The notes under the pieces are model-generated. The model saw nothing but the letters and a program-made list of their open reading frames with translations. It was not told where the DNA came from and made no database searches. From Prorocentrum cordatum (taxonomy: Eukaryota), in assembly GCA_963575745.1 (NCBI GenBank), contig CAUYUJ010000111.1, forward strand, positions 62,001 through 118,113: 56,113 bases of DNA. Direction: 5' to 3'. Both the position numbers and the translations under genes were made by a program. This document shows positions 1 to 27,864 of this stretch, piece by piece. How positions within the stretch are numbered: the stretch's first letter is position 1; each line of letters starts with the position of its first letter.

Positions 1-10
1 TAATCAGTGC

Positions 11-835
11 GTGGCCAGCTTCGAGGGCATCGAGGCATCGTCAGCGGTCTATTGGGACAAATCTATTCGAACGGGAGGAGTAGAGGGACCTATGATTTTT
101 CTGGCAGTTTCTATTGTACTCTGGAGAGATGTTATCGACAGATGGAGGCAAGAAACGCAGTACGGCATCAAATTGGAAAATGATGAGCGCATGTTCAATG
201 GTGAGCGTATGACCCACAGTTTCTGGGCAGATAATCTTTTGTTGTATGCGAAGACCCGCACTGACCTTGAGTTGATGGTGCGTGACATGAGTATCCCCCT
301 GATGAATGCAGGAATGACCTGGAAGCCGAAATCTTTGATGTATATTTACTTTGGTGCGCCGCCTGGCATCCCGCCGTCCCCTGAGCAGGATATCCGTGTG
401 CTGGTGCCGTCTAGTGACGCCGCTCTTGGGACCCGAGAAGTGGTCCTACCGCGTGTTCAAGCGTTTGAGATCCTGGGAGCCACTCTGGAGGAGACCTGGA
501 AGGACCACTCGGACTCAGAGGCCATGCTCCAGAAAGCCCAGAGGATGTTCTTTGGGGAAATCGCGTATTACCGCTGTTCTGGGATTGGCTTGGCTGAAAG
601 ATTTACTCGCTATCAAGCTAAAGTGATTGCTGCATTATTATTCAACTGTGAGGGCAGAACGCCCCAGGTATACGCAAGCGGAGAACTGAAGGCTGGTCTG
701 AGTTTCAACGTAGGCGATACAAAGCGGGGCGACAGAGTTTTGCTGGACTTGGATTCCGAAGTGCGGTGCAGATATGGATATTTCGTTGTTGGGATTGGGC
801 TAAGGATGTCTCAGTTGCTGCAAGTATTCGTATGA
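11..835 (+). pseudogene. Reverse transcriptase C-terminal/thumb fragment of LINE copy 1; frame disrupted near 660-770
   Basis: IRTGGVEGP, HSFWADN, MTWKPKSL, FEILG and LLFNCEG match IRTGGPEGP, HFLWADN, MRWKESSL, MEVLG and VLYAAEG in copy 3. Homology continues in a different frame (766..2034). Confidence 0.8.
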
Positions 836-2034
836 GGAGATACACAACACACACAGAGGAGGAGGAGGGAGAGACGGTACCAAATCGGCGTCAGAGGAAA
901 ACTCGGGCGATGGCGGCGGCGGCGACTTCTCAAACATATCATGTATCTCAGATATCCCAGATGTCGAGTGGCTGTCGCCGGCGTACACCAGATGATCAGC
1001 CTGCCATACCTGAGGAGTCGGACATGTCACGTGAATGGATGATATCTAGGCTGGCCATGTTACATGGAAGGGGGAAGTGGACGGAACATCGTGACACATG
1101 TATTCTAGCAATGCCTGTAAAAGATAGGAAGCAGCTGACACGCATGAACATAGGCGGCCGCCCCCGTGGACATACTGCGTGGGACTGGTGCTTGTGCGAT
1201 CTCTTTGGTTGTGAGTGGTACCTCTCATTCGACAGTTCCGCTGGGTCCCGTGAGAAATACTGCAAGCATTTGCTGACTGTGATTGGTATGCAACACTTGT
1301 TCGACTTGTTTGTTCTACCCAGGCCGCCTGGTGTGAGACATGTGAAGGCAGAGGAGGAGGAGGAGAGTGAGATGAATGAGAGGATGAGCAAACGTATTGC
1401 CGCTAATTTTGAGAATGAAACGGAGTGGAGGTGTGAGAATATTGAGCGTCTTGGGATGGAGATCTTGGGAGATAGTAAGACTGTTGTAAACTGGATGTGT
1501 GGTGAGTGGCAGATTCGCAACAAGCAGTATGTACGACTGGTGGGAACACTACAAAATACGGTATCGATGCTGTCTGGATGGGGACTGACCTCACCTGCAT
1601 CGGGACAGAATCTGTATAAGCATTTCTTTCGTGAGGGTAATGAGCGTGCGGATAAATTGTCGTGGGAGGCCAGAGGTGGCCAAACTATTACTCGCTGGTT
1701 TGCATATGATAAGTTCCTCAGTACTCGTAAGACTGCTCTCCGTGGTGCATTCGATGGGGGTGTCAGTAATGAAGGATGTGGAGGTGGGTGGTGGCTTCAG
1801 ATTGGCGTTGTAGGTAGGGGTTCCAGCGTGCAGGTTGATTTTCCCATCTCCTCCTCCTCCTCCTCCTCCTCTTCCTCCTGCACCAGCTCGCACAGCTTCC
1901 ATTGGCACGATGTGGCCGAGGAGGCGATGAGCTTGCCTCCTGGTAGCACGGTAACCTGCTGTGAACTAGCTGCCTGCGCTGCCCTGACGAGAGCTGCTGC
2001 TAAGGTGGCGTGCGCTCTGCTACGACCTACCTAA
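766..2034 (+). pseudogene. C-terminal part of LINE copy 1 ORF2 with RNase H-like domain in permuted motif order
   Basis: Motif order GDS(1468)..VVNW, HFFREGNERADKL(1621), AFDGG(1747)..GGGW, TVTCCEL(1948), the same as in copy 3. Confidence 0.8.
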
Positions 2035-5000
2035 GATGGTGGGGGCTCAGTTGCACTGCTCCGCCGATTCGGATTCGGATTCTAGTGGCGGACCGCAAAC
2101 CGCAAAAAAAACAAAGGTTGATGGTTTACCGCCGGGGCGCCCAGTGGACGCTACCAAGTACCTCGTAACTCGTAGAGCTTCGCGCAGTCGGTTTTATCAA
2201 GATAATTCGAGCTTCAGAACAGCTACAGAGCTGGTAAGCACAGCTAATCGATTCAGAATGATCAGGCGCGTTCGCCTGTTGAAACCAGAGGTCTGAACTC
2301 GGTCTGCTAGCCGAGCTAGGTCCGCAAACCTATTCGTATTATTCGAGTCATCTTGACAGACGCTTTCGGTTTTCAGTACTTAGCTCGAGCTACAGGACAG
2401 CTACAGAGCTGATACGTACAGAATCTGATTCAGAATCATCAGTGGCCGTTGTCTGTTGAATGCAAAGCACAGAACTCGGTCTCCTGCCCGATCTAGAATC
2501 GCGAAACTATTCGTATTGTTCGAGTCATCTTGAGACATGCTGTCGGTTCTCTGCACTTAACTCGGGCTGTAGGGCCATGGCTGGTAATCACTGGAATCGA
2601 TTCGAAGACATCAGACGTGTCCGCCTTTCGAACCCAGAGCTCCGAACTCTGTCTGCTGCCCAAACTAGGTCCGCGAAACTATTCGTATTGTTCGAGTCAT
2701 CCTGAGAGGTGCTCTCTGCACTTAACTCGGGCTGTAGGGGGGGCTGCAGGGCTGGTAATCACAGGAATCGATTCAGAGACATCAGACGCGTCCGCCTGTC
2801 GCATTCAGAGGCCTGAACTTGGTCTGATACTCGAGCTAGGTTTGTTAAACTAGTCGTATTGTTCGAGTTATCTTCAGGGTTGCTGTCGATTTACACAGAA
2901 CTCGGGCTGTAGGAGAGCTACAGCTCAAACAGAAGAATCCAGAAGCATCGGGGGCGTTCGGCTGTTGCATCGAGAGGTCTGAAATCGCTTGGGCTGAAAA
3001 ACTGCTTGTTCTGCATTTTTTTTCGACATTATATATTGTCAGGAAGCTCTACGAGTCCCCCGGCGGTAAGAAAGGTTGACGGTTTACCGCCGGCGCCCAG
3101 TGGACGCTACCAAGTGGACGCTACCAAGTACCTCGTAACTCGTAGAGCTTCCCTTAGCAAGTACCTCGTAGAGCTCTTCGAAGCTGAGCTAAGAGGAATT
3201 CGGGCGCAGGGTGGAGCTAGTTGGCCGACCGCGCATTAAGAGACAATATGTTAACTTTGGGTCGAGTTTCTAATGTTTGTGCAAAATTTGAAAATTCGTT
3301 TTGAGAGCGGGTATTTTTTTCACGTGTAGTAGGTTATGCCGCGACTGCCAGTTAAATTCTCAGGTCCGTAGCTGCAATATTACTATCAAAACACTTGCTG
3401 GAACCGACGGCCGTTTCGAGTCATCTTGACGCGCATTAACGGTTTCTGTACTTATCTCGGGATATAGGACAGCTGCAGAGCTGATGCTTACAGAAACGAA
3501 TTTGGAATCATGAGGCGCGTTCATCTGTTCGATCTACAGCTCTGAACTCGGTCTGCTGCTCGAGCTGGGTCTGCAAACTTATTTGTATTCTTCGAGTCAT
3601 TTTGACGAGTGTTGTCCGTTTTCTGTACTGAACTCGCGATATCTTGAAACAAAATCTCAATGTGTAGTGGGCAGCGCCGCGCAAGAAAGCTCTACGAGGC
3701 TCCCGGTGGTAACCTGGTCGACGGTTTACCGCCGGCTCCCAGTTATTGCTGGAAGCTAAGAGTAATTCCGGCGCGCTGGAGAGCTAGTTGGCTCGAAAAA
3801 TCTCGACGGAACTTTTGCTGACTTTTGGTCGGTTGAAAATTTTGTTCTCAAAATTTGAACATTCGTTAGAGCTCTAGTATGTTTTCCCGTGATATTCGAT
3901 CTTATTCCCGCTCGCCATCTTGATCTCAGAGCGATCGGGTGAATATTATTATCGAACAGCACTGTGGCGGGATCGGCCGTTTTGAGTCATCTTGATACGG
4001 GTTGACGGTTTTCTGAACATAACTCGAGCTTTAGGACAGATACAGAGCTGGTAAGCGCAGCTAATCGATGTAGAATGATTCGGCGCGTTCGGCTGTTGAA
4101 TCCATAGCTCTGAACTCGGTGTGTTCGCCGAGTTAGGTCCGCAAACCTATTTGTATTATTCGAGTCATCTTGACAGGAACTCTCGGTTTTCTGTACTTAA
4201 CTCGAGCTGTAGGACAGCTACAGAGCTCATATTCACAGAAACCGGTTTAAAATGAGCAGTTGCTTTTGTTTGTCGAATCGAGAGCTCTAAACTCGGTCTG
4301 CTGCCCGATCTAGAATCGCGAAACTATTCGTATTGTTTGGTCGAGTCATCTTGAGAAGTGCTCTTGGTTTTCTTCACTCAACTCGCGCTAAGGGGCGCTA
4401 CACTGCTGGTGGTCACATGACTCGATTTGAAGACATGAGGCGCGTCCGTCTGTCGAATGCAGAGCTCGGAACTCGGTCTGCTGCCCGAATTAGGTCTGCG
4501 AAACTACTGCATTGTTCGAGTCATCCTGAGAGGTGTTGTCGGTTTTTCTGCACTTAACTCGGGCTGTAGGGGGGCTGCATGGCTGGTAATGACAGGAGTC
4601 GATTCGCAGACAGACGCGTCCGCCTGTCGCATTCAGAGGTCAAAAAATATTCACTATAAGTCGGAATGTTGGTATTTGCTGTCGGTTTTCTCAACTTAAG
4701 TCGAGCTAGGAAGCTCTACGAGTCTCCCGGCGGTAACCAAGGTTGACGGTTTACCGCCGGCGCCCAGTAGAGCTTCTCGGCGTCGATGAGCTAGAGGAAT
4801 TCCGGCGCGGGGTGGAGTTAGTTGGTCGACCCGACCAGAAAAGAAGATGTGATAACTTTTGGTCGGTTTTGCAATTGTTTAAAAGATATTTGACAATTCA
4901 TTTTGAGAAAGCAGATTTCTACTCCGAGCATTGGTATCTTAACTTTGTTTTCTGAGCAGCTCAGCTCTCTAGGCGCACTTCTACTATCGAAACACTTGGA

Positions 5001-7755
5001 GGAACCATCATCATGTCGACACGAAAAAAAAACATTTTTCTCTTTTTTGAGAAATGTTTCGAGAAGCTCTCTCTTTCGGTTCTGAGCACTCTTACACGTG
5101 GAAGGAGCTCTACGAGGTTCCCGGCGGTGACGAGGTTGACGGTTCACCGCCGGCGCCAGTGCTAATATTTGAAAGATATTTGACAATTCATTTTAATAAA
5201 GCAGATTTTGCGCGTCACATTGGCATAAAAACTCTTCTCTGACAGCAGTTCAGCTCTGCCGATGCATTTTCGCATGAGATGACTTCCAGGAAATGAGTGA
5301 ATATAAATATCGAAAAAATCCCAAATTAAGTTTTCCGAAAAATCTCTATTTTTTCACTCTGTGTCGATTCTCTGCATTCTCACGAGTGAGGAGAGCTCTA
5401 CGAGGTTCCCGGCGGTGACCAGGTTGACGGTTCACCGCAGGCGCCAGTAATTCGGCGCGCTGGAGAGCTAGTTGGCAAGAAAAATCTCGACGGAAGTTTT
5501 GATGACTTTTGCTCAGTTGAAACTTATGTTCTCAAAATTTGACAATTCGTTAGAGCTCTAGTATTTTTTCCCGTGATATTCGATCTTATTCCCGCTCGCC
5601 ATCTTGATCTCAGCTCGATCGGGTGAATATTACAATCGAAAAGCACTGTGGCGGAATCGGCCGTTTCGAGTCATCTTGATACGCACTGACAGTTTTCTGA
5701 ACATAATTCGAGCTTTAGGACAGCTACAGAGCTGGGAAGCACAGCTAAACGATTTAGAATGATTAGGCGCGTTCCCCTGTTGAATCCAGAGGTCTCAACT
5801 CGGTCTGTTAGCCGAGCTAGGTCCGCGAACCTATTTGTATTATTCGAGTCATCTTGATAGGAACTCTCCGTTTTCTATACTTAACTCGAGCTGTAGGACA
5901 GCTACAGAGCTGCTATTTACAGAAACCGATTTAGAATCAGAGCTCTGAACTCGGTCTGTGCCCGATCTAGAATCGCAAAACTATTCGTATTGGTCGAATC
6001 ATCTTGAGAAGTGCTCTCGGTTTTCTTCACTCAACTCGCGCTGAGGGAGGATACAGTGCTGGTGGTCACAGGGATACAGTGCTGGTGGTGAGGGGGAATC
6101 GATTTGAAGACATCAGGCGCGTCCGCCTGTCGAATCCAGAGCTCGGAACTCGGTCTGCTGCCCGAATTAGGTCTGCGAAACTATTCGTACTGTTCGAGTC
6201 ATCCTGAGAGGTGCTATCGGTTTTCTGCACTTAACTCGGGCTGTAGGGGGGCTGCAGGGCTGGTAATGACAGGAGTCGATTCGCAGACATCAGACGCGTC
6301 CGCCTGTCTTCAGATGTCAAAAAATATTTACTCTGATTCGGAATGTTGGTAGATGCTGTCGGTTTTCTCAACTTAAGTCGAGCTAGGAAGCTCTACGAGT
6401 CTCCCGGCGGTAACCAAGGTTGACGGTTTACCGCCGGCGCCCAGTTCCGGGGCTCTGGAGATCACGTAACTCGTAGAGCTTTCCTTGGCAAGTTGTTGCT
6501 GGAAGCTTAAGAGTAATTGCGGGGCGCTGGAGAGCTAGTAACTCGTAGAGCTTCTCTCAAGTTTTTGCTGGAAGCTTAAGAGTAATTCCGGCGCGCTGGA
6601 GAGCTAGTTGGCAAGAAAAATGTCGACGGACCTTTTGGTGACTTTTGGTCGGTTGAAAATTTTGTTCTCGAAATTCAATCATTCGTTTGAGCTCTAGTAT
6701 TTTTCCCGTGATATTCGATCTTATTCCCGCTCGCCGTCTTGATCTCAGCTCGATTGGGTATCTTTTACTGCCAAAAAGCACTCCGGCGGGATCGGCCGTT
6801 TCGAGTCATCTTGATACGCGCTGTCGGTATATTGGACTCAACTCGAGATATAGGACAGCTACAGAGCTGGTAAGCACAGCTAATCGATTCAGAATGATCA
6901 GGCGCGTTCGCCTGTTAAACCCAGAGGTTTGAACTCAGTCTGCTAGCCGAGCTAGGTCCGCAAACCTATTCGTATTATTCGAGTCATCTTGTCAGGCGCT
7001 CTCGGTTTTCTGTACTCAACTCGAGCTACAGGACAGCTACAGAGCCGATACGTACAGAATCTGATTCAGAATCATCAGTGGCCGTTGTCTGTTGAATCGA
7101 GAGCTCTGAACTCGGTCTGCGACCCGATCTAGAATCGCGAAACTATTCGTAGTGTTCGAGTCATTTTGAGAGATGCTGTCGGTTCTCTGCACTTAACTCG
7201 GGCTGTAGGGGGGCTGCATGGCTGGTAATCGCTGAAATCGATTCGAGAACATCAGGCGCGTCTGCCTTTCGAATCCAGAGCTCCGAACTCTGTCTGCTGC
7301 CCGAACTAGGTGCGCGAACCTATTCGTATTGTTCGAGTCATCCTGAGAGGTGCTGTCGGTTTCCTGCACTTAACTCGGGCTTTAGGGGGGGCTGCAGGGC
7401 TGGTAATCACAGGAATCGATTCAGCGACATCAGACGCGTCTGCCAGTCGCATGCAGAGGTCTGAAAACGGTCTGATACTCGAGCTAGGTTTGCCAAATTA
7501 TTTGTATTCTCCGAGTCATCTTGAGAGGTGCTGTCGATTTACGCACGTAACTCGGGCTGTAGGAGAGCTACACAGCTCGTACAGAAGACAATCCAGAAGC
7601 ATCGGGGGCGTTCGGCTGTTGCATCCGAGGGGTCTGAAATTGCTTGGGCTGATTTTTTTTGTTATGTGTAGTTTTTTTCGACATTATATGTTGTCAGGAA
7701 GCTCTTCGAGTCCCCCGGCGGTAACAAAGGTTGACGGTTTACCGCCGGCGCCCAG

Positions 7756-10044
7756 TTGGCAAGAAAAATCTCGACGGAACTTTTGCTGACTTTTGGTCGG
7801 TTGAAAATTTTGTTCTCGAAATTCAACCATTCGTTAGAGCTCTAATATTTTTTCCCGTGATATTCGATCTTATTCCCGCTCGCCATCTTGATCTCAGCTC
7901 GATCGGGTACCTTTTACTGCCAAAAAGCACACGGGCGGGATCAGCCGTTTCGAGTCATCTTAATACGCGGTGACGGTTCTATCAAGATAACTCGAGCTTC
8001 AGGACAGCTACAGAGCTGGTAAGCACAGCTAATCGATTCAGAATGATCAGGCGCGTTCGCCTGTTGAACGCAGAGCTCTGAACTCGGTCTGCTAGCCGAG
8101 CTAGGTCCGCAAACCTATTCGTATTATTCGAGTCATCTTGACAGACACTCTCGGTTTTCTGTACTTAACTCCAGCTACAGGACAGCTACAGAGCTGATGC
8201 GTACAGAATCTGATTCAGGATCATCAGTCGCCATTGTCTGTTGAATCCAGAGCTCTGAACTCGGTCTGCTGCTCGATCTAGAATCGCGAAACGTATCGTT
8301 CGAGTCATTTTGAGAGATGCTGTCGGTTCTCTGCACTTAACTCGGGCTGTAGGGGGGCTGCATGGCTGGTAATCACTGGAAACGATTCGGAAACATCAGG
8401 CGCGTCCGCCTTTCGAATCCAGAGCTCCGAACTCTGTCTGCTGCCCGAACTAGGTCCGCGAAGCTATTCGTATTGTTCGAGTCAATCTGAGAGGCGCTGT
8501 CGGTTTCCTGCATTAACTCGGGCTGTAGGGGGGGCTGCAGGGCTGGTAATCACAGGAATCGATTCAGAGACATCAGACGCGTCCGACTGGTGCATGCAGA
8601 GGTCTGAACTCGGTCTGATACTCGAGCTAGGTTTGCCAAACTATTCGTATTGTTGGAGTCATCTTGAGAGGTGCGGTCGATTTACGCACGTAACTCGGAT
8701 TGTAGGAGAGCTACAGAGCTCGTGCAGAAGACAATCCAGAAGCATGGGGGGCGTTCGGCTGTTGCATCCGAGAGGTCTGAAACTGCTTGGGCTGAACAAC
8801 TATTTTCTCTGTGTAATTTTTTCGACATTATATGTTGTCAGGAAGCTCTACGACCCCTCCGGCGGTAACAAAGGTTGACGGTTTACCGCCGGCGCCCAGT
8901 TGGCAAGAAAAATATCGACGGAACTTTTGCTGACTTTTGGTCGGTTGAAAATTTTGTTCTCGAAATTCAACCATTCGTTAGAGCTCTAGTATTTTTTCCC
9001 GTGATATTCGATCTTATTCCCGCTCGCCATCTTGATCTCAGCTCGATCGGGTACCTTTTACTGCCAAAAAGCACACGGGCGGGATCAGCCGTTTCGAGTC
9101 ATCTTAATACGCGGTGACGGTTTTATCAAGATAACTCGAGCTTCAGGACAGCTACAGAGCTGGTAAGCACAGCTAATCGATTCAGAATGATCAGGCGCGT
9201 TCGCCTGTTGAACCCAGAGGTCTGAACTCGGTCTGCTAGCCGAGCTAGATCCGCAAACCTATTCGTATTATTCGAGTCATCTTGACAGACACTCTCGGTT
9301 TTCTGTACTCAACTCGAGCTACAGGACAGCTACAGAGCTGATACGTACAGAATCTGATTCAGGATCATCAGTCGCCATTGTCTGTTGAATCCAGAGCTCT
9401 GAACTCGGTCTGCTGCTCGATCTAGAATCGCGAAACGTATCGTTCGAGTCATTTTGAGAGATGCTGTCGGTTCTCTGCACTTAACTCGGGCTGTAGGGGG
9501 GCTGCATGGCTGGTAATCACTGGAATCGATTCGGAAACATCAGGCGCGTCCGCCTTTCGAATCCAGAGTTCCGAACTCTGTCTGCTGCCCGAACTAGGTC
9601 CGCGAAACTATTCGTATTGTTCGAGTCAATCTGAGAGGCGCTGTCGGTTTCCTGCATTAACTCGGGCTGTAGGGGGGGCTGCAGGGCTGGTAATCACAGG
9701 AATCGATTCAGAGACATCAGACGCGTCCGCCTGGTGCATGCAGAGGTCTGAACTCGGTCTGATACTCGAGCTAGGTTTGCCAAACTATTCGTATTGTTGG
9801 AGTCATCTTGAGAGGTGCGGTCGATTTACGCACGTAACTCGGGCTGTAGGAGAGCTACAGAGCTCGTACAGAAGACAATCCAGAAGCATGGGGGGCGTTC
9901 GGCTGTTGCATCCGAGAGGTCTGATATTGCTTAGGCTGAAAAATTATTTTTTCGGTGTATTTTTTTTCGACATTATATGTTGTCAGGAAGCTCTACGAGT
10001 CCCCCGGCGGTAACAAAGGTTGACGGTTTACCGCCGGCGCCCAG
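7756..10044 (+). repeat. Two near-identical tandem units (7756-8899, 8900-10044) with an internal ~177-bp monomer
   Basis: The GAGTCA landmark recurs at about 7951, 8129, 8301, 8478 and 8655 (spacing 172-178). Both units share the same short deletion (gcgaaacgtatcgttcg). Confidence 0.9.

Positions 10045-11399: not shown

Positions 11400-11401
<2 letters not shown>

Positions 11402-11477
<76 letters not shown>
11402..11477 (+). repeat. Poly(T) tract of 76 nt inside a short type-B array unit
   Basis: The homologous position in the next unit (~11890) reads catgttttctatttt. Confidence 0.9.
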
Positions 11478-11479
<2 letters not shown>

Positions 11480-16239: not shown

Positions 16240-17642
16240 TGGATCGTTGTTGACATCACGTCGTACGACAGTCCTGAGGCTCAGCTGGCATTGAGGAGAG
16301 AGATAGGACTCGAGCATTGGGGTGAAAGTACTGAGGAGTGGTTTCGGCGTCAAAGGAATTTGGACATACCCACAGAAGACTACCAGGACGAGAGAGTCAA
16401 CTTTGATTACCTTGAGGAATACCAGCCGTGGGATCAGAAAGATCTGCAGGCACTGGAGGCAGCATCAAACAAACGTCAACGTGAGGACGATAGGAGCTGG
16501 TTAGATAAATACGGATTGAACGGTAATATTCTTGAAGATATGACTCATGTTGCAGCAGCGGCGGATGCCGCGATGACTGGGGATGGTGAGACTCGATCCA
16601 AACGTGCACGTGGAACAGAGATTGAGGAGGAGAGGAAAGTGATGTTAGAAAAGGAGAAGGATCCATTCAAACAGATGATGATGAAGCATGTTTGGAAAAC
16701 GGAGGATGCCCATGAGGATCTCATCCATGTTGTTCAATCGACGAAGACGGACATCAAAAGAGTTGATGACACACTCAAGTTGCATACGGAGAGAATGGAC
16801 AAATCAGATGCACGGACAGATATTTTGGAGAAACAGGTTAAGCAAATTTTGGCTGGATCTCCTGCAGCTTCGGTTTCGACTAGTGTGGGCCCTGGTGGCT
16901 CCTCTGGTGGTGGTGGAGGTTCGATCCCTCGCGTGCAACAGGAGCGATCGAGCCAGTTCACACCAACTTATCTCGAGCTGAAAGGGTGGGTTACGGATTG
17001 GTCGAATCAAGTAAATCGGGGAAATCAAATGATACCCTGGGCAGATGCGGCACAGTTAATATCAAATATGATTGGGACACTTCAGGGGGAGGAAAGGAAT
17101 GCTTACGATAAAGATAAAACTGAACGTTTAAACGGAGGAAGATATATGTACGGCAGTGTGAAGGTCGGTTTCAAAGAAGGGACACCGCGGGACACTCTTT
17201 GGAGAATAAAGAAATGGATGGATATGGTCTGTAAGGAACCCGCCGACCGCATTGCCCCGCCCCCAGGTTATACGTATCCAGGTGCCGATGTTCTCACTCA
17301 TGATATGGACACGCCAATCGATCCCAGAAAGATTCGTACGTTAGTGGAGTGTGCACCCTGGAAGCGTGATCATGTGAAAGCGGTTGCTCGTTTCTGTGGG
17401 ACTTGGCGTAGTATGACCTCGGCTCATGTTCAAATCGAGATCCGTGGGGAGGTGGGGCCACCGAGAAGTCAGATTTGGACTCAAGCTGTTCGAATTTCCG
17501 ACCCGTCTGTTTTGCGACGTATACGAATACCACAGGGGCTTGGGTTCTTCATGCTGATGCATGGGCTCGTATTGTTTCTTTTTATCCGGCGCTGAAGGTT
17601 CCCATGAATGATATACTTCAGGAAGTGAATCGTAGGCAGTGA
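16240..17642 (+). CDS. LINE ORF1-like protein (coiled coil followed by a possible RRM-like region); start approximate, probable frameshift near 17495
   Basis: Lies upstream of ORF2. A heptad-like stretch VQSTKTDIKRVDDTLKLHTERMDKSDARTDILEKQV precedes LELKGW. An alternative frame FRPVCFATY..EVNRRQ* ends at 17642. The track ORF start at 15799 lies in the array and is read-in. Confidence 0.65.
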
Positions 17643-17676
17643 CGTTTGCGGCGCCTCGTCCGAGGCATACGCTTAG

Positions 17677-20600
17677 GCGAGCTGGAACCTGAACAAAGCA
17701 GGGGAGGCTCATTTCAAATGTGCTGAGATTCTCCATCATATGAGGGCATGTGGTGGGCTCTTTGCATGTCAGGAAACTCAATACCTAGTGCACGGGGAAT
17801 TTGAACGCTTGGGGTGGCGCATCAAAACTAGTTCGTGTAGTAAGGCAGCTCTCATCTTCGACAGATCTTGGGCGGCTGCCGTCCGTATGTTTTTCACTTG
17901 TTTCACGAGGTTCGTTATCGGTGTCTTTGGGTCAGAGAAGTCACCACTCATTATTGTGTCAGCGTATTTGCCAGACCCTCATGTGGAGGATTGTGTAGAG
18001 ATTGCTGCGGAGGTATATGAGCAGATCGGTCGTGCTCGCAATGTTCTCCGCACTAAGTTTCCTCAGGCCAGCTTTTGTGTTCTGCTAGATGCAAACGTGG
18101 AGATTCCGCCTGGATGCAGATTTACGTATAATGGGGAGGAGTATGAGGCTACTGGAAAGGAAGGTACTCGTACGGACAGAAGGTGGGAGAGAGGAGGAGA
18201 CGGTACACAGCAGATTGAAAGGAGGAGTCGGAGGAGGAGGCTGAAGGAGCTGCTGTTAGAGTTCATGGAATCGCATGGACTGAAGGCCGCCAACACTTTC
18301 TGTACTAGGAGGCATACCTGGGAGTCGTGGGGGGAGAACAAGTTTCTGACTTCGAAGAGGGTCCTGGATTACCTAATGGTCCCTCACCGTTGGGAGTTCT
18401 CGGATCTGGAGGTGAAGTGGTGTTTCAAGAGGGGTGGGAAGAAGCAGTTCAGTAGATTATCCGATCACGCAATCATCACGGCGAGTTTCACTGACCCTGG
18501 GAACGTGATTGTTCGTCGCCCTGACCCCCAGCCTGGTCAGAAGTCTAGGCCGTCTCTGGTCGGATACAAGTGTTCGACTTGGGCTGATGAGCATCAGGCT
18601 CGACAGCATGTGGATTCGTATCTAGGCGGTGCTGCCTTTTCAAGGTGTCCGTCTGTGACCTGTCCACAGGGTCTGGAGAGTACTATGCTGGAGGCGTACT
18701 TGTCACCGACGGTGGACTACTCCACCACGGGTGCGAGAAGACCGAGAGAGCCGTCCAGGCCGGTGCAGCTCACAAGAGCGGAGGAGGAGGTTAAGATGTG
18801 TCCGAAGGAGGAAGTGGAGAGGTTGAGGAGGTTAAAGAATGAGGCTAATCGTCTACGCAGAGGTTATCGACGTGATATGATTATGTGCAGATGTCCCCCA
18901 ACAAAACGAAAGGTCAGATATACTATCAAACATTTAGTGGTGGATGGGAGGGAGACGGAGGACCGTGAGGAGTGGAAGGAGGAGCTCGACAAGTTCGTTC
19001 GTTGCAAGGTGTCGTCCGAAGAGATACGCAATTCCACCAACAGTGTGATGGAGGAGATCAGGATGAGGGCTGTACATGAGATACGTTCCACATCAGTTGT
19101 GGGAATTAGTATGGCGCTGCTTCTCAGAGCACGAGCTCGGCTGAAGACCCAGAGGGCTACTGGGCCAGACGGGATACCGTGCGAGATTCTAAGGAGCTTG
19201 CCGTGGTGTGCTCTCAGAGCGATCCAGAAGCTGTTCGATAAAATCATCAAGCTCACGATTCCGTATCCTCAGTCGTGGCGTGAGATTCTCGTCTCTTTTA
19301 TGCCAAAAACTCCAGGGATCACTAAGCTAAAAGACGGACGCTTGCTGTGTATGCAGAATGCTGTTTCGAGATGGTTCAGTTCCTGTGTTGTTCTCTTGGT
19401 TGAGGGTCATATTGAAAGAAAAGGAGTGTTTTGTCATATTGGGTTGTATGGTTTCCAGGAACACCGTCGTACACACGAAATCACGGCTAGCATCAAACAC
19501 ATAGGTCAACATGCTGCACAATGGGGAAAAGGGGAAACGGCACACTTGGCGAACGCTGATGTCCTTCAGGCGTTCGATCACTGCACGGTGGCCAATGTCA
19601 GGCGCGGGTTGGATCATGCGGATGTACCCCTTTACCTACAGTATGCTCTACTTGACCCCTTGTGCGAATGTGTAGGCACTGTCTATTATGATGGGATTGA
19701 GGTGGTGGAGGTTAGGTGGGACAAATGTATTCGGACGGGAGGGCCCGAGGGACCGTTGGCCTTCAATCTCATCGTTGCTGCTATGTGGGGCTCCACGATT
19801 CGAGAATGGGACGTACTAGGACTAGGTTATCGTATTGAGTATGTGACTGGCTCGACTAGCTGTGTTTCGATTATTAATCATTTCCTTTGGGCTGACAACT
19901 GTTATGTATTGGCTCGGAGTCGAGAGGAACTCACACGCATGTTACACGGTCTAACTACACAGTTACATGATTATGGAATGAGATGGAAGGAATCCAGCCT
20001 ATTGTATATGGTGTTCGGGGTCGAGCCGCCGCGAGATGTGGAAGGGGAAATACTTCACACTGCTGATCTTGCTCTCTCGGTGGGGTCGGAGGCGTCTGGA
20101 GTGTATCGATTTAGAAGGACGACGGAGATGGAGGTGCTGGGGGCTTATATTTGTTCTGAACTACATGTGAATGAACATCATGATTTGGACGCTCGTATTG
20201 ACTGTGCTCGCAGGGCCTTCTGGGGGCAGGCGACCTTCTTCCGCTCCACGGCCATCCCGTTGAAAGATAAATATGAGAGGTATGCTCAGAGAGTTCAGAG
20301 TATTGTGCTCTACGCGGCGGAAGGATGCACGGTCGATTCAAGTTCATTGAGCGCCCTTCATATCTTTGAGGGCAAGTGCCTGTCTGTAATGTCTCGCTGT
20401 ATACGGAGGGAGGGGGAAAGTTACCAGGAATGGAATACGAGGAGGTATGAACGTGTGAGACAAAAATTTCATGGTGCTCACTTTGTGGGCATTGTACAGA
20501 AGTTTCTCAGAGTGCATTGGATGTGGGCAATTGACGTCCAGGACTTTGCACACAGGCTGATCACAGATCGGGGGGAGTTGGAGGCGAACTCGATGAGAGC

Positions 20601-21597
20601 TTGGAGAGATTCTCGTTTCTCATGTCTGGCGTTTGGCCGACTGTGGGATAGAATGAGGACGGATTCAAGTGAGGCTCTCAGATGTTGGGGAAACTGGAAG
20701 GAGGCCAGCTCTATGAAAAGGCATCGGGGGGGACAGGAGAGCGTCGGACTCCGTCCGTGGTATTATTCATTGGAATCGTTTTACGGTTTATCCTGGTGGG
20801 AGTTCTTTGCTGGAAGTTTTGAGCATTTCATGGATTTCGCTACTAATGTTTGTTCTAGTACTATGTTGAAGTACTTCCAAAAGAAGTGTAAAGGGTTGGC
20901 GTCCTCAGGGGTGCCTGTATTCTTGAACTTGGATGAGGATGGAGGGGTTCATATCGGTCAGGATCGGGAGGATACACCAGCATATAGGGATCGCCTCAGC
21001 AAACGTATTGCGTTGCATAATATGCGTTGTACACAGTGGGACCTCGATACAGATGGGATACCACTGGACATCCAAGGGGACTCACTGCTTGTTATTAACT
21101 GGCTCTGCGGGAAATGGAAAGTATTAGCTCAGGTATATCAGAAAAGGGTGGATACTCTGATTAATAAGTTGGACGAAATGCAGGAAACTTACTTGGTGAG
21201 GCCTCCAGAGGCCGGCCGTGACTTCTTCTCTCATTCGTTTCGGGAATGGAACCAGAAAGCTGACTTACTGACCCATCAGGCCCGTCAGGGCCATGTGTAC
21301 GCCGATTTCGTTTACCTCAACGACTTTGAATCTCAGTGTTATATTCCTTGCCTTATCAAAGCCGGCTTTGATGGGGGAGTTTGTAGCCGCGGAAGTGCCT
21401 GTGGTGCATGGATACAGATTGGTCTGCGAAACAAGTATATCTTCTCGCGGACCGACATCATTTTCAAGGATGTGTATCTTGCGGCTTGGTGTCTACCACC
21501 GAGCGCCACTGTTACAGATACGGAACTATCGGCGGCGGAGCGCATATGCGAGGTGCTCCCACAGGTTGTGCAGACCTTCTTTGATCATTCGCAGTGA
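17677..21597 (+). CDS. LINE ORF2 polyprotein: APE endonuclease, reverse transcriptase and RNase H-like domain
   Basis: APE motifs ASWN (in frame, upstream of the ATG at 17740), CQET, SAYLP, LDAN, NTF, LDYL and SDH. RT motifs GPDGIP, YGF, ADVLQAFD, IRTGGPEGP and WADN. C-terminal GDS, REWNQKAD, FDGG and DTEL. About 1300 uninterrupted codons. Confidence 0.93.
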   Translation, partial: ASWNLNKAGEAHFKCAEILHHMRACGGLFACQETQYLVHGEFERLGWRIKTSSCSKAALIFDRSWAAAVRMFFTCFTRFVIGVFGSEKSPLIIVSAYLPDPHVEDCVEIAAEVYEQIGRARNVLRTKFPQASFCVLLDANVEIPPGCRFTYNGEEYEATGKEGTRTDRRWERGGDGTQQIERRSRRRRLKELLLEFMESHGLKAANTFCTRRHTWESWGENKFLTSKRVLDYLMVPHRWEFSDLEVKWCFKRGGKKQFSRLSDHAIITASFTDPGNVIVRRPDPQPGQKSRPSLVGYKCSTWADEHQARQHVDSYLGGAAFSRCPSVTCPQGLESTMLEAYLSPTVDYSTTGARRPREPSRPVQLTRAEEEVKMCPKEEVERLRRLKNEANRLRRGYRRDMIMCRCPPTKRKVRYTIKHLVVDGRETEDREEWKEELDKFVRCKVSSEEIRNSTNSVMEEIRMRAVHEIRSTSVVGISMALLLRARARLKTQRATGPDGIPCEILRSLPWCALRAIQKLFDKIIKLTIPYPQSWREILVSFMPKTPGITKLKDGRLLCMQNAVSRWFSSCVVLLVEGHIERKGVFCHIGLYGFQEHRRTHEITASIKHIGQHAAQWGKGETAHLANADVLQAFDHCTVANVRRGLDHADVPLYLQYALLDPLCECVGTVYYDGIEVVEVRWDKCIRTGGPEGPLAFNLIVAAMWGSTIREWDVLGLGYRIEYVTGSTSCVSIINHFLWADNCYVLARSREELTRMLHGLTTQLHDYGMRWKESSLLYMVFGVEPPRDVEGEILHTADLALSVGSEASGVYRFRRTTEMEVLGAYICSELHVNEHHDLDARIDCARRAFWGQATFFRSTAIPLKDKYERYAQRVQSIVLYAAEGCTVDSSSLSALHIFEGKCLSVMSRCIRREGESYQEWNTRRYERVRQKFHGAHFVGIVQKFLRVHWMWAIDVQDFAHRLITDRGELEANSMRAWRDSRFSCLAFGRLWDRMRTDSSEALRCWGNWKEASSMKRHRGGQESVGLRPWYYSLESFYGLSWWEFFAGSFEHFMDFATNVCSSTMLKYFQKKCKGLASSGVPVFLNLDEDGGVHIGQDREDTPAYRDRLSKRIALHNMRCTQWDLDTDGIPLDIQGDSLLVINWLCGKWKVLAQVYQKRVDTLINKLDEMQETYLVRPPEAGRDFFSHSFREWNQKADLLTHQARQGHVYADFVYLNDFESQCYIPCLIKAGFDGGVCSRGSACGAWIQIGLRNKYIFSRTDIIFKDVYLAAWCLPPSATVTDTELSAAERICEVLPQVVQTFFDHSQ

Positions 21598-24500
21598 TTT
21601 GACACACATTGTTTCTTCTTTTCCGTGTCTTGTATATTCCTGCAGCTTCGCTGCTCACTGACTTCCTCGATTAGCTGTGTGTACTTTGCGTTTGATTGTG
21701 TCATTGCGGCATGTGATTCTCTTTATTCCTTCAGCTTCGCTGTGTGGTATAAGAGCTGACTGCTTGCGTGATGAATAAGAGGCTCTGTTTTGCCTGAGAC
21801 TTTGTTGGACCTGGCCTCAGTGGCCAAGACGGTCCCAGCAAAGACGCAAAAAAAACAAAGGTTGACGGTTTACCGCCGGCGCCCAGTTGTTGCTGGAAGC
21901 TTAAGAGTAATTCCGGGGCGCTGGAGAGCTAGTTGGCAAGAAAAATCTCGACGGACCTTTTGCTGACTTTGGGTCGGCGCCAGTTGGCAAGAAACATCTC
22001 GACGGACCTTTTGCTGACTTTGGGTCGGTTGAAAATTTTGTTCTCGAAATTCAACCATTCTTTAGAGCTCTAGTATTTTTTCTGACCATATTCGATCTTA
22101 TTCCCGCTCGCCATCTTAATCTGAGCTTGATCGGGTAAATATTTCTGCAAAAAATCATCGCGGCGGTATCGGCTGTTTCGAGTCATCTTGATACGCGTTG
22201 TCGGTATTTTGTACTTAACACGAGCTGTAGGGCAGCTACAGAGCTCATTCTCACAGAAATCGATTGCGAATCATCAGGCGCGTTCGTCTGTTCCATCTAG
22301 AGGGCTGAACGCGGTCTGCTGCCCGAGCTAGGTCCGCGAAACTATTCGTGTTGTTGGAGTCATGTTGAGAGGTGCTGACAGTTTTCTGCACTTAACTCGG
22401 GCTGTAGAGGGGCTACAGGGCTCGTGCTCACAGGAATCGATTCGGAGACATCATGCGCGTCCGCCTGCCGAATCCAGAGCTCGGGACTCGGTGTGCTGCC
22501 CGAGCTAGGTTCGCAAAACTATTCGTATTCGTCGAGTCATCTTGAGAGGTGCTGTCCGTTTTCTGCACTTAACTCGAGCTGTAAGGGGGCTGCAGGGTTG
22601 GTAATCACTGGAATCGATTCGGAGACATCAATCGCGTCCACCTGTCGCATTCAGAGCCCTCAACTCGGCCTGCTGCCCGAGCTAGGTCCACGAAGCTATT
22701 CGTGTTGTTCGAGTCATCTTCAGAGGTGCTGTCGATTTCTGCACTTAACTCGGGCTGTAAGGGTGCTGCGGACTGGTAATCACAGGAATCGATTCGGAGA
22801 CATCAGGCGCGTCTGCCTGTTGCATTCAGATGTCTGAACTCGGTCTGATACTCGAGCTAGATTCGCGAAACTATTTGTATTGTTCGAGTGATCTCGAGAG
22901 GTGCTGTCGATTTTCGCACGTAACTCGGGCTGTAGGAGACCTACGGAGCTCGTGCGCACAGAAAACGATCCAGAAGCATGAGGGGCGTTTGGCTGTTGCA
23001 TCGAGAGGTCTGAAATCGTTTAGGATGAAAAGCTATTCGTTCTCTGCAATTTTTTTCGACATTATATATGCTCAGAAAGCTCTACGAGTCCCCCGGCGGT
23101 AAGGAAGGTTGACTGCTTACCGCCGGCGCCCAGTGGACGCTACCAAGTGCAATCTTTGTGCAATTTTAAAGTTCGTTTTGGGAACCGGTATTTTTCTCAC
23201 CTGTAGTGGGTTGTGCCGCGTCTGCGAGTGAAATTCACAGGTCCGTAGCTGCAGTATTACTATCGAAAGACTTGAGGGAACCGTCAGCCGTTTCGAGCAC
23301 CTCCACACGCGTTGACAGTTTTCTGTATCTCAAGATTTAGGAGAGGTACAGAGCTGCTACTTACAGAAATCGATTCAGAATCATCAGGCGCGTTTGTCTG
23401 TTCCATCGAGAGGTCTGAACTCGGACTGCTACTCGAGCTAGATCCGCGAAACTATCCGCATTACACGAGTGCTCTGAGAGGAACACGTAATTTTTAAAGC
23501 TTTTCAGCTCACGCGTAAGAAAGGTCCCCCCTTGTGTTCCAAGCAGCGTCGTGCAGAGAAGAGCTCTACGAGGCTCCCGGCGGTAACCTGGTTAACGGTT
23601 TACCGCCGGCTCCCAGTTCCGGGGCGCTGGAGAGCTAGTTGGCAAGAAACACCTCGACGGACGTTTTGACGACTTTTGCTCGGTTGAAAATTTCGTTCTC
23701 GAAATTGAACCATTCGTTGGAGCTCTTGTATTTTTTTCTCGTGATATTCGATCTTATTCCCGCTCGCCATCTCGATCCCAGCTTGCTCGCGTACCTTTTA
23801 CTGCCAAAAAGCGTCTAGGCGGGATCGGCCGTTTCGGGTCATCTTGTCACGCGCTGCCGGTTTTCTGAAGATAACTCGAGCTTTAGGACAGCTACAGAGC
23901 TGGTAAACACAGCTAATCGATTCAGAATGATCAGCCGCGTTCGCCTGTTGAACCCAGAGGTCTGAACTTGGTCTGCTAGCCGAGCTAGGTCCGCAAACCT
24001 ATTCGTATTATTCAGGGGCTCTCGGTTTTCTGTACTCAACTCGAGCTACAGGACAGCTTCAGAGCTGATACGTACAGAATCTGATTCAGAATAATCAGTG
24101 GCCGTTGTCTGTTGAATCCAGAGCTCTGAACTCGGTCTGCTGCCCGATCTAGAATCGCGAAACTATTCGTATTGTTCGAGTCATCTTGAGAGATGCTGTC
24201 GGTTCTCTGCACTCAACTCGGGCTGTGGGGGGGCTGCATGGCTGGTAATCACTGGAATCGATTCGGAGACATCAGGTGCGTCCGTCTTTCGAATCCAGAG
24301 CTCCGAAGTCTGTCTGCTGTCGAATTAGGTCCGCGAAACTATTCGTATTGTTCGAGTCACCCTGAGAGGTGCTGTCGGTTTCCTGCACTTAACTCGGGCT
24401 GTAGGGGGGCTGCAGGGCTGGTAATCACAGGAATCGATTCAGAGACATCAGACGCGTCTGCCTGTCGCATGCAGAGGTCTGAACTCGGTCTGATACTCGA

Positions 24501-27691: not shown

Positions 27692-27864
27692 GCGTGCTCT
27701 GTATCGCCTGCCCACCCTCCTTCCCCCCCCCCCACCCATCGCGCCATCGCCCCGACCCCTCGATCGCCGCGCCCGCCCACCTACCCCCCAGTTTCCGGCG
27801 TGGCAGTCGGGGGGGTGGGGCGTTGGCGCAGAGGGGGGCGCAACTTCTTCGCCCCTGCGCAAAG
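27692..27864 (+). other. Putative GC-AG intron, phase 0
   Basis: tca|gcgtgc ... caaag|gtt joins NYS to VALSS in frame. The interior is poly-C/G low complexity. Confidence 0.55.

What the first reader, a model, noticed from the sequence alone, without database searches (positions are those of the whole stretch)
1..21886. Three diverged LINEs inserted at the identical nucleotide of another element's terminal hairpin: a target-specific retrotransposon parasitising a tandem array
Seen: all three LINE 3' ends (2111, 13656, 21855) are A8 followed by CAAAGGTTGAYGGTTTACCGCCGG. The two visible 5' junctions follow CTCTACGAG(T/C)CCCCCGGC(GGTA). Intact units read CCGGCGGTAA|CAAAGG, so each insertion is at the stem-loop boundary, in the same orientation and with no TSD. 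The copies have unrelated 3' UTRs and only protein-level similarity, so these are independent events by different subfamilies. Only type-A hairpins are hit. Known: APE-type target-specific LINEs exist (R1, SART/TRAS, and Tx1L targeting a DNA transposon). Inference: this is an old family specialised on a Helitron-like hairpin; I do not recognise this pairing as described.
Basis: partly seen in the sequence, partly recalled or inferred. Interest (0 to 1): 0.92.

Follow-up and report, generated by a model that had tools for sequence, protein, structure and literature searches.

The report
Hairpin-targeting LINE family in a dinoflagellate
Three very different copies of a jumping gene (a LINE retrotransposon) sit at exactly the same base inside a conserved DNA hairpin of a repeated array, and distant relatives from other samples sit in the same hairpin, so this is an old retrotransposon lineage that has specialised on one small target.

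Summary
Three LINE copies (1-2111, 13185-13656, ~15990-21855) each end in A8 directly before CAAAGGTTGA(C/T)GG, the loop of a 10-bp-stem hairpin that occurs intact 16 times in a same-strand array (2112-25076). The copies share no DNA similarity, only 32-58% protein identity, while their host flanks are 85-94% identical. So they are independent insertions.

New evidence:
- ORF2 has an APE-fold endonuclease, an L1-like RT and an RNase H-like tail.
- Nine metagenome relatives were found. The four that fall in the same RT clade (support 0.998) all carry pieces of the same hairpin at their 5' ends, and the one with a visible 3' end joins the loop at the same position. The five outside the clade carry none.
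- The hairpin stem shows compensatory changes, and its loop is nearly invariant in two organisms.
- LINE 5' ends carry GGCTCAAG, the end of the dinoflagellate spliced leader. The host is therefore probably a dinoflagellate, and the LINE RNA is probably trans-spliced, sometimes taking host-unit sequence with it.

The 'Helitron-like' label for the host unit is unproven. 'No TSD' is not general for the clade. A whole-genome census could not be done. Verdict: a new target and clade of a known kind (target-specific APE LINE). I found no description in print.

The parts
1..2111 (+). LINE copy A. It is cut by the window start and holds the 3' part of ORF2 (RT C-terminal part and RNase H-like tail) in two overlapping frames (2-835 and 766-2034), so it has at least one frameshift. 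A 3' UTR follows, then A8 at 2104-2111.
2112..25076 (+). Host array of same-strand units 288-1311 bp long. Each unit ends in AG|CTCTACGAG-NN-CCC-hairpin-CGCC(C)AGT. Many units hold about four 177-bp sub-repeats. There are 16 intact hairpins and 3 split by LINEs. The array ends inside the loop of a further hairpin at about 25076.
7715..7748 (+). Example of an empty target: CCGGCGGTAA|CAAAGGTTGACGGT|TTACCGCCGG, a 10-bp stem with a 14-nt loop. The LINE 3' junction site lies between the AA of the 5' arm and the first C of the loop. Identical empty sites are at 8859, 10004 and 11150.
13185..13656 (+). LINE copy B, 472 bp, 5'-truncated. It holds the end of ORF2, a 3' UTR and A8 (13649-13656). Its 5' flank ends in GGTA and its 3' flank starts with CAAAGG, so the insertion is blunt.
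15988..16011 (+). 5' junction of copy C. Two copies of GGCTCAAG (15988-15995 and 16004-16011) match the last 8 nt of the dinoflagellate spliced leader. GGC is shared with the target (microhomology).
15990..21855 (+). LINE copy C, full length. The ORF1 frame is open to 17595 (first ATG at 16540). ORF2 is 17740-21597 (1285 aa, no stop): APE endonuclease, RT and RNase H-like tail. The 3' UTR is 21598-21847 and A8 is 21848-21855.
13161..13184 (+). 5' half of the hairpin site split by copy B (AGCTCTACGAGTCCCCCGGCGGTA).
21856..21887 (+). 3' half of the hairpin site split by copy C (CAAAGGTTGACGGTTTACCGCCGGCGCCCAGT). The matching halves for A and B start at 2112 and 13657.

Best explanation
This is a clade of APE-type LINE retrotransposons, most likely of dinoflagellates. 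It inserts specifically, and in one orientation, into the loop of a conserved hairpin that ends the units of a repeated array.

Proposed mechanism:
1. The ORF2 endonuclease nicks the bottom strand at the boundary between the A-T end of the stem and the loop (top strand GG(T/A)AA|C). Reverse transcription is primed there, which gives a precise 3' junction.
2. The second strand is cut at variable positions, from about 16 nt upstream to 13 nt downstream. This leaves a deletion, a blunt join or an 8-13 bp duplication. The 5' end is joined through 1-3 nt of microhomology.
3. The element has no need of its own promoter. It is transcribed with the host array, and its RNA gets its 5' end by spliced-leader trans-splicing. 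Full-length copies therefore begin with spliced-leader relics and sometimes carry host-unit sequence.
4. The hairpin is multicopy and is itself under selection, so it is a stable and harmless landing site. Several diverged LINE lineages coexist in it.

Shown: the common junction, the independence of the copies, the endonuclease fold, conservation of the target in the clade, covariation in the hairpin, and the leader relics. Inferred: that the endonuclease itself reads the site, and co-transcription with the array.
For: Same junction.
- 4 of 4 visible 3' ends in the family abut the loop right after the A-run of the 5' arm: window A, B, C and L004.
- 6 of 6 visible 5' ends abut or contain hairpin sequence: B, C, L004, L005, L006, L007.

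Independence. The window copies have no DNA similarity and 32-58% amino-acid identity, while host flanks are 85-94% identical.

The trait maps to one clade. In a FastTree tree of 34 RT sequences, a clade with support 0.998 holds WinA, WinC, P0003, P0004, P0005, P0008, P0010 and L004-L007. L010/L012/P0015 and L008/L009/L011 lie outside it. The covariance model and pattern searches find hairpin pieces in L004-L006 and none in L008-L012. In L007 the 21-nt hairpin piece at the contig start was found only by exact-motif search and by reading the sequence.

Element type.
- The N-terminal alignment has the motifs LQE, YLPD, DANVE, NTF, DY..VP and SDH.
- The AF2 model (pLDDT 74) matches ExoIII, TRAS1 EN, L1 EN and R1 EN at probability 1.0.
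- The RT profile hits human L1 ORF2p at E = 3.7e-11.
- ORF1 is homologous between window C, L004 and L007 (E about 1e-10 to 1e-12).

Target under selection. Across 27 hairpins from the window and from a second organism, 93% of cells are paired. Three of 10 pairs show compensatory changes in 4 to 8 sequences each. 0 of 500 shuffles reach the observed covariation. The loop GGTTGACGG is nearly invariant.

Spliced-leader relics. GGCTCAAG lies at the 5' end of window C (twice), L004 (GCTCAAG at the junction plus one full GGCTCAAG), L005 (twice, as TTGGCTCAAG) and L006, and about 180 nt inside L007. It equals the 3' end of DinoSL, DCCGTAGCCATTTTGGCTCAAG (PMC7245778, passages read). In L005 two relics sit directly before CTCTACGAGGTCCCCGGC and then the LINE.
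Against: - The share of genomic copies that lie in hairpins is therefore unknown, and the sample is 7 copies.
- The metagenome contigs end close to the LINE ends, so their flanks are short.
- In L005, and perhaps L004, the hairpin piece may have travelled in the RNA. That shows where the parent copy sat, not where this copy sits.
- Nothing tests whether the endonuclease reads sequence or structure, or whether it uses a nick made by something else.
- No RNA data support co-transcription.
- The dinoflagellate assignment rests on 8-10 nt leader fragments. No full 21-nt leader is present in any of the 30 loci held at the time, and the window was not scanned for the full leader.
- The constant A8 in three diverged copies is not explained by an ordinary poly(A) tail.
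Confidence: 0.8

Rival explanations
1. Passive hot spot. The hairpin (as a cruciform or single-stranded hairpin), or a nuclease that belongs to the host repeat, creates a nick or fragile point at the stem-loop boundary. LINEs of this clade use that free 3' end. The specificity would then lie in the target's own biology and not in the LINE endonuclease.
For: The junction is at a structural boundary of a hairpin that folds on both strands at -10 to -16 kcal/mol. The stem is kept by compensatory changes, as expected if the structure forms in vivo. Insertions occur in loops of different sequence: CAAAGG, CCAAGG and CCTGG.
Against: The endonuclease domain keeps its catalytic motifs in all members aligned. 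Sister-clade LINEs, one of which (L012) also carries a GGCTCAAG at its presumed 5' end, are not in hairpins. So the preference goes with the LINE lineage. Known site-specific APE LINEs owe their specificity to the endonuclease (R1Bm: PMC1919474, abstract seen in the listing).
Confidence: 0.13
2. The hairpin halves are the LINE's own terminal sequences and travel with it. On this reading there is no target specificity, and the 'array units' would be internally deleted LINE derivatives.
For: In L005 the 5' hairpin piece lies inside the transcript, downstream of spliced-leader relics. In the L004 contig a similar piece follows a relic.
Against: There are 16 intact hairpins with no LINE sequence nearby. 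Further hairpins lie on four contigs of a MAG in which no ORF2 was found: 18 by the strict pattern, and 19 on two of those contigs alone by a looser one. The A8 run lies between the LINE and the 3' half. The arms of each hairpin co-vary as one unit, with no chimeric hairpins among the 16 in the window. The three LINE 3' UTRs are unrelated, while the downstream half-sites are 81-100% identical.
Confidence: 0.03
3. One ancestral insertion was spread by amplification or unequal crossing-over of the array, and the copies then diverged.
For: Arrays do amplify units. The three copies share orientation and site by construction under this idea.
Against: The LINE copies have diverged beyond DNA recognition (32-58% amino-acid identity), while the array units flanking them are 85-94% identical. 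In the RT tree, copy A groups with P0008 and copy C with P0003/P0004, which are sequences from other records.
Confidence: 0.02

Closest known systems
Tx1L in Tx1D (Tx1 clade; an APE-type LINE that inserts into a specific site of a DNA transposon in Xenopus)
   Same: An APE-type LINE whose target is another repeated or mobile sequence rather than a host gene, with site- and orientation-specific insertion. PMC4640811 (introduction passages read) lists 'transposons' among LINE targets and names the Tx1 and R1 clades as the APE-type target-specific groups. The Tx1L/Tx1D pairing itself is recalled, not taken from a call.
   Different: Here the target is the loop of a short conserved hairpin at the end of array units of unknown nature. 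The hosts are probably dinoflagellates. ORF2 carries an RNase H-like tail. Membership in the Tx1 clade could not be tested because no reference sequences were available.
R1 and R2 elements of rDNA
   Same: Precise 3' junction, variable 5' junction, several diverged lineages sharing one multicopy target, and expression by co-transcription with the target. The R2/R1 co-transcription is recalled. R1Bm endonuclease specificity comes from the abstract of PMC1919474 in the listing. The R1 EN structures 2ei9 and 6a42 are among the fold matches.
   Different: The target is not an RNA gene (0 Rfam matches). The 5' end is made by spliced-leader trans-splicing, as inferred from leader relics.
Utopia and Keno (U2 snRNA gene-specific LINEs)
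   Same: Specificity for one site is kept over deep divergence. 3' boundaries are precise and 5' boundaries varied. Tandem insertions occur occasionally, and several lineages are maintained in one target (PMC4640811, passages read). Compare the tandem copy at the 3' end of L004.
   Different: Utopia uses a restriction-like endonuclease and Keno an APE. Both hit a host gene. Here the target is a repeat-borne hairpin.
Retrogenes with relic DinoSL in dinoflagellates
   Same: Spliced-leader fragments encoded in DNA at the 5' end of retroposed copies, sometimes in tandem (PMC7245778, section 7 passages; PMC6050394, abstract in the listing).
   Different: Here the retroposed RNA is that of the LINE itself, and the relics are only 7-10 nt long.
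Helitron2/Helentron termini (candidate for the host unit)
   Same: A hairpin and an inverted repeat lie a few tens of bp before the 3' terminus, with asymmetric terminal inverted repeats, and tandem arrays are known (PMC5148889, passages read). In the window, the 11-mer AGCTCTACGAG before the hairpin recurs inverted 8 times within about 110 bp after hairpins.
   Different: No Rep/helicase gene was seen. Only 8 inverted copies were found against 19 hairpin sites. The ends are CCCAGT, not CTRR or T-runs. The nature of the unit remains open.

Membership tests
APE-type non-LTR retrotransposon (LINE) | N-terminal apurinic/apyrimidinic-like (EEP fold) endonuclease with catalytic motifs | tested here: met
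   Motifs LQE, YLPD, DANVE, NTF, DY..VP and SDH in alignment A2. AF2 model with pLDDT 74. Foldseek hits to 1ako, 1wdu (TRAS1 EN), 2v0r/1vyb (L1 EN) and 6a42/2ei9 (R1 EN), probability 1.0, E 6e-6 to 3e-4. Pfam itself does not detect the domain in this clade.
APE-type non-LTR retrotransposon (LINE) | LINE-type reverse transcriptase downstream of the endonuclease | tested here: met
   Pfam RVT_1 is weak (27 bits against a cut-off of 29.6 in P0001) but above the cut-off in relatives P0008, P0010 and P0004. The profile of A1 hits human L1 ORF2p 8c8j at E = 3.7e-11.
APE-type non-LTR retrotransposon (LINE) | Hallmarks of target-primed reverse transcription: A-rich 3' end, 5' truncation, variable 5' junction | tested here: met
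   A8 at all three window copies. Copy B is truncated to 472 bp. 5' junctions are spread over about 30 nt of the target.
Target-specific LINE (functional class) | Independent copies share one insertion site and orientation | tested here: met
   4 of 4 visible 3' ends and 6 of 6 visible 5' ends of 7 copies. The copies are independent.
Target-specific LINE (functional class) | Most or all genomic copies lie in the target (genome-wide census) | not testable with these tools
   No genome is held for the window.
Tx1 clade or R1 clade (the known target-specific APE clades) | RT phylogeny places the element inside the clade together with reference elements | not testable with these tools
   No reference sequences of LINE clades were available. 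The tree holds only anonymous database proteins.
Canonical Helitron (Helitron1), for the host unit | 5'-TC and 3'-CTRR ends, with a hairpin 10-12 nt before the 3' end (definition from PMC5148889) | tested here: not met
   The conserved block ends 8 nt after the hairpin in CGCC(C)AGT in the window, and in TTGCCAT in the second organism. There is no CTRR.
Helitron2/Helentron, for the host unit | Asymmetric terminal inverted repeats plus a hairpin near the 3' terminus | tested here: inconclusive
   The hairpin is present and co-varying. The 11-mer AGCTCTACGAG has 8 inverted copies downstream of hairpins, but not in every unit. The 5' terminus is undefined, because units start at different points after AGT.
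Helitron2/Helentron, for the host unit | Autonomous partner encoding Rep and helicase | not testable with these tools
   There are no long ORFs in the array or on the four hairpin contigs of G001. No genome is available to search.
Dinoflagellate nuclear transcript (DinoSL trans-splicing) | DNA-encoded relic of the 22-nt spliced leader at the 5' end of retroposed copies | tested here: met
   GGCTCAAG or TTGGCTCAAG at or near the 5' ends of window C, L004, L005 and L006, often twice; in L007 about 180 nt inside; also in L012. The leader sequence comes from PMC7245778. Only the last 7-10 nt are present; no full leader is in any of the 30 loci held then.
RNase H domain of LINE ORF2 | RNase H fold with the D-E-D-D motifs in canonical order | tested here: inconclusive
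   The motifs occur in the order GDS, N-x-RAD, FDGG, TD-x-ELSA. The model has pLDDT 84. Only model residues 58-147 align to RNase H1 chains, at Z 3.8-4.2 and 22-25% identity. Foldseek lists none.

The most novel reading that the evidence does not exclude
The hairpin-ended units are not a Helitron relative but a new kind of eukaryotic element: a single-strand (HUH-type) transposon or an integron-like cassette system. Such an element would insert 3' of AGT in one orientation and build arrays. The LINE endonuclease would recognise the extruded hairpin as a structure. That would make this LINE clade a structure-specific retrotransposon that has co-evolved with another mobile system since before the two host lineages split.
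Probability: 0.15. Interest if true: 0.85.

Novelty: new variant of a known kind. Interest (0 to 1): 0.62.

Why it matters
Target-specific LINEs are the natural models for site-directed retrotransposition. According to the introduction of PMC4640811, the known APE-type ones belong to the Tx1 and R1 clades and hit rRNA genes, snRNA genes, telomeric and simple repeats, and a few transposons.

This case adds three things:
- A new clade whose target is about 35 nt of conserved hairpin. The target has been kept over a divergence of about 70% of ORF2 residues, in hosts whose retrotransposons are known mostly as bulk 'ancient LINE remnants' (PMC8045281, passages read).
- A retrotransposon that appears to use spliced-leader trans-splicing and read-through from its target in place of a promoter.
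- An uncharacterised array-forming repeat with a selected hairpin, found in at least two organisms.

A short, defined target with natural sequence variants would make the question 'does a LINE endonuclease read sequence or DNA structure?' directly testable in vitro.

Tried and rejected
- Rfam: no family in the window at gathering score. None at E <= 1 in one array unit. Only three weak miRNA-model matches (E 0.2-0.7, far below gathering) on the hairpin contigs. The hairpin is therefore not a described RNA family.
- Own genome search: none is held.
- The listing of cluster members: switched off.
- Protein atlas: does not hold P0001 or P0004.
- Hairpin motif in viral contigs: 0 exact 20-mers. 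Three hits to a 17-mer have no 5' arm and are chance. L002, from a Clostridia MAG, is a chance coding match.
- MAG G001: no ORF2 relative.
- Pfam on 117 ORFs of 25-56 kb: one low-complexity 'Mucin' match only.
- Earlier findings of this scan: nothing by place, sequence or words.
- Other GGCTCAAG occurrences in the window (34544, 52725) look like chance in context.
- C-terminal model: Foldseek gave no RNase H match.
- Rejected idea: that the array units themselves insert into the loop as SINE-like copies. This is rejected because all 16 window hairpins have matched arms.
- Literature: nine full-text searches found no paper describing a LINE that targets a Helitron-type or other repeat hairpin, no site-specific LINE in dinoflagellates, and no paper printing the loop motif. 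Subscription journals, Repbase Reports and bioRxiv supplements were not searchable.
Full report
**1. What is in the window**

Bases 2112-25076 are a same-strand array of units 288-1311 bp long. Many units hold about four 177-bp sub-repeats.

Every unit ends in a conserved block: AG|CTCTACGAG, two variable bases, CCC, a hairpin, then CGCC(C)AGT. The hairpin has a 10-bp stem (CCGGCGGTAA / TTACCGCCGG) and a 14-nt loop containing GGTTGACGG.

A covariance model built from the block finds 16 full copies in the window (69-84 bits). It also finds half-sites at each LINE junction and a truncated copy at 25037-25074, where the array ends.

Three hairpin types occur:
- Type A (GGTAA...TTTACC; loop starts [C/G][A/C/G]AAGG): 10 intact plus 3 occupied.
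- Type B (GGTGA...TTCACC): 4 intact plus the truncated one.
- Type C (loop CCTGG): 2.

**2. The three LINE copies**

| Copy | Extent | State |
|---|---|---|
| A | 1-2111 | Cut by the window start; ORF2 in two overlapping frames |
| B | 13185-13656 | 5'-truncated, 472 bp |
| C | about 15990-21855 | Full length; ORF1 frame open to 17595; uninterrupted ORF2 of 1285 aa at 17740-21597 |

Each copy ends in exactly eight A followed by CAAAGGTTGA(C/T)GGTTTACCGCCGG. Four empty sites read CCGGCGGTAA|CAAAGG.

Upstream, B follows ...CCCCCGGCGGTA and C follows ...CCCCCCCGGC. B is therefore a blunt insertion. C has lost up to five target bases.

The copies are not duplicates of one event:
- blastn finds a single 38-bp match (A-C), and tblastx gives 32-58% identity.
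- Their last 250 nt are 50-53% identical in global alignment.
- The 200 bp of array upstream of B, C and three empty sites are 85-94% identical.
- No further LINE fragment lies anywhere in the 56 kb.

**3. What kind of element it is**

Pfam sees only a weak RVT_1 in ORF2. A profile of ORF2 and its relatives hits the human L1 ORF2p core (8c8j) at E = 3.7e-11.

The N-terminal 270 residues align with relatives and show the motifs LQE, YLPD, DANVE, NTF, DY..VP and SDH. Their AlphaFold model (pLDDT 74) matches exonuclease III, APE1 and the endonucleases of TRAS1, L1 and R1 at Foldseek probability 1.0.

More distant relatives carry Pfam Exo_endo_phos and RNase_H. ORF1 is homologous between window C, L004 and L007. 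This is an APE-type LINE.

Its clade could not be named, because no reference LINE sequences were at hand.

**4. Is the association older than this window?**

A search of 1.84 billion representative proteins gave 930 relatives at E <= 1e-3 but only 32 at E <= 1e-30. A scan of metagenome contigs with the ORF2 alignment gave nine loci.

An RT tree of 34 sequences (query-anchored alignment, FastTree) has a clade with support 0.998. It holds window A and C, five database proteins and L004-L007. L010/L012/P0015 form the sister group, and L008/L009/L011 lie further out.

All four metagenome members of the clade show the hairpin:
- **L006:** ...CCCGGCGGTAACCAAGGTTGACGG|CTCAAGG..., the 5' arm and the whole loop before the LINE.
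- **L007:** starts CCCGGCGGTAACCAAGGTTGA| and then the LINE.
- **L004:** starts ...AGCTCTACGAG|GCTCAAG.... It ends ...CGCAAACTCGC-AAA|CCTGGTTG, which is the same loop position as in the window.
- **L005:** has CTCTACGAGGTCCCCGGC| before the LINE.

The five loci outside the clade show no hairpin, by pattern search with up to 5 mismatches, by eye or by the covariance model.

So 4 of 4 visible 3' ends and 6 of 6 visible 5' ends of seven copies involve the hairpin. These copies differ from each other by up to about 70% of ORF2 residues. The trait maps to one clade.

The 3' junction is precise. The 5' junction ranges from about 16 nt upstream (L004) to 13 nt downstream (L006) of it. The clade therefore produces deletions, blunt joins and 8-13 bp duplications, and 'no TSD' is not a family trait.

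**5. The target itself**

The exact 20-mer of loop plus 3' arm also occurs on two contigs of a MAG whose title says Nitrospinota. That MAG holds 18 matches to a degenerate hairpin pattern on four contigs of 41-43% G+C. One contig carries 10 hairpins in 4.8 kb and another 9 in 3.3 kb, all on one strand. It holds no ORF2 relative. These contigs look like eukaryotic DNA binned by mistake, from an organism other than the window's.

Twenty-seven hairpins (16 from the window, 11 from these contigs) were aligned:
- 93% of stem cells pair.
- Three of ten pairs carry compensatory changes: CG to GC in 8 sequences, GC to AU (or CG) in 8, AU to GC in 4.
- No shuffle out of 500 reaches the observed covariation.
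- Sliding the partner by one to three columns lowers pairing to 24-54%.

The loop GGTTGACGG is nearly invariant. As single-stranded DNA the block folds at -10 to -16 kcal/mol on either strand.

The hairpin is therefore a selected structure with a selected loop, present without LINEs, and its two arms are inherited together. This excludes the idea that the downstream half belongs to the LINE.

**6. What the host unit is remains open**

For a Helitron2/Helentron-like element:
- A hairpin sits a few bases before the unit's end.
- The 11-mer before it (AGCTCTACGAG) recurs inverted eight times within about 110 bp after hairpins.
- Tandem arrays are known for such elements (PMC5148889, passages).

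Against, or unknown:
- There is no CTRR end.
- No Rep/helicase was found.
- The 5' terminus is undefined.

A curious regularity was seen. After CGCC(C)AGT the next unit begins at different points of one longer leader sequence. In the longer copies each of those points is preceded by AGT. This would fit orientation-specific insertion 3' of AGT, but it is only a pattern. Rfam has nothing for the block.

**7.

Full-length LINE copies begin with GGCTCAAG:
- Twice at 15988 and 16004 in window C. These are 2 of only 5 occurrences in 56 kb.
- In L004, GCTCAAG at the junction and GGCTCAAG 14 nt further on.
- Twice as TTGGCTCAAG in L005.
- Once in L006.
- About 180 nt inside L007, and once in L012.

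This is the 3' end of the dinoflagellate spliced leader DCCGTAGCCATTTTGGCTCAAG. DNA-encoded relics of that leader mark retroposed transcripts (PMC7245778, section 7 passages).

The organisms are thus most likely dinoflagellates, and the LINE RNA is trans-spliced.

In L005 two relics directly precede CTCTACGAGGTCCCCGGC and then the LINE. Downstream of L004, a relic is followed by host-unit-like sequence ending in ...GGGAAGCTC. The simplest reading has four steps:
- Transcription starts upstream in the array.
- The leader is spliced to an AG in the host unit. Every unit has AG before CTCTACGAG.
- The resulting RNA, with host piece and LINE, is retrotransposed.
- The 5' joints show 1-3 nt of microhomology: GGC in C, GG in L006, G in L004.

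This step is inferred; no RNA data could be obtained.

**8. Mechanism proposed**

- The endonuclease nicks the bottom strand at 5'-CCTTTG^TTACC-3', or one or two bases further into the TT.
- Reverse transcription starts there.
- The run of eight A in all three diverged window copies, and of three A in L004 (whose target reads GGAAAC), suggests that part or all of the run is target-derived or templated. It argues against a free poly(A) tail and is unexplained in detail.
- Second-strand cleavage is imprecise.
- The hairpin offers many copies, no gene to damage, and a sequence that its owner cannot afford to change.

**9. Comparison and novelty**

The case works like Tx1L in Tx1D, R1/R2 in rDNA and Utopia/Keno in U2 genes: precise 3' and variable 5' boundaries, and several lineages kept in one target (PMC4640811, passages).

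It differs in four respects: its target (a repeat-borne hairpin loop), its probable hosts, its RNase H-like tail, and its use of the spliced leader.

Nine full-text searches found no description. The reviews and genome papers I looked into treat dinoflagellate LINEs only in bulk:
- PMC11453091: passages read; no occurrence of 'Helitron', 'hairpin' or 'palindrom'.
- PMC8045281: passages read.

I rate it a new variant of a known kind.

The main weakness is the small sample and the lack of a genome-wide census.

Noticed in passing
window 20857-21594 (ORF2 residues about 1040-1285); also window 13185-13595 and L004 4831-5580: The C-terminal domain of ORF2 has RNase H-like motifs in permuted order (GDS, N-x-RAD-x-LTH, then FDGG and TVTD-x-ELSA-x-E at the very end). 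A confident model (pLDDT 84) aligns to RNase H1 chains only over its first half (Z 3.8-4.2, 22-25% identity). This may be a circularly permuted RNase H.
   Followed up: partly
window 35200-40130: About 4.9 kb of degenerate (AGTGAGT)n, roughly 700 copies at 63% matches, with a G-over-C skew of about 0.7.
   Followed up: no
window 2136-24900 (starts of array units): After each hairpin block (CGCC(C)AGT) the next unit begins at a different point of one longer leader sequence. In the longer copies each such point follows an AGT, as if units were joined or inserted 3' of AGT.
   Followed up: partly
window 25037-25090: The array ends inside the loop of a type-B hairpin (…CCCGGCGGTGACTAGGTT|TAAGAAAG…). 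This is close to where 5' junctions of LINE relatives lie. No 3' half follows anywhere downstream.
   Followed up: no
L004 5700-5754: Eight bases of loop after the LINE's 3' end there is a spliced-leader relic (CTCAAG), followed by sequence like the end of a host unit. This looks like a second retroposed copy in tandem in the same hairpin.
   Followed up: partly
G001 contigs C80, C84, C99, C118 (loci L001, L003, L013-L030): A MAG titled Nitrospinota holds four AT-richer contigs (41-43% G+C) that consist of dense same-strand arrays of hairpin-ended units 180-970 bp long. This is probably eukaryotic DNA binned by mistake.
   Followed up: partly
window 25608-33082, + strand: A run of long open frames (323-632 aa) on the same strand as the array, with no Pfam match. 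One of them has five unnamed homologues (28-42% identity) in public data.
   Followed up: partly
window 21598-21847 and L004 5584-5700: The 3' UTRs of window copy C and of L004 both contain the motif CAGCTTCGCTG twice, although the elements share only about 30% ORF2 identity. Copies A and B lack it. This was seen by eye.
   Followed up: no
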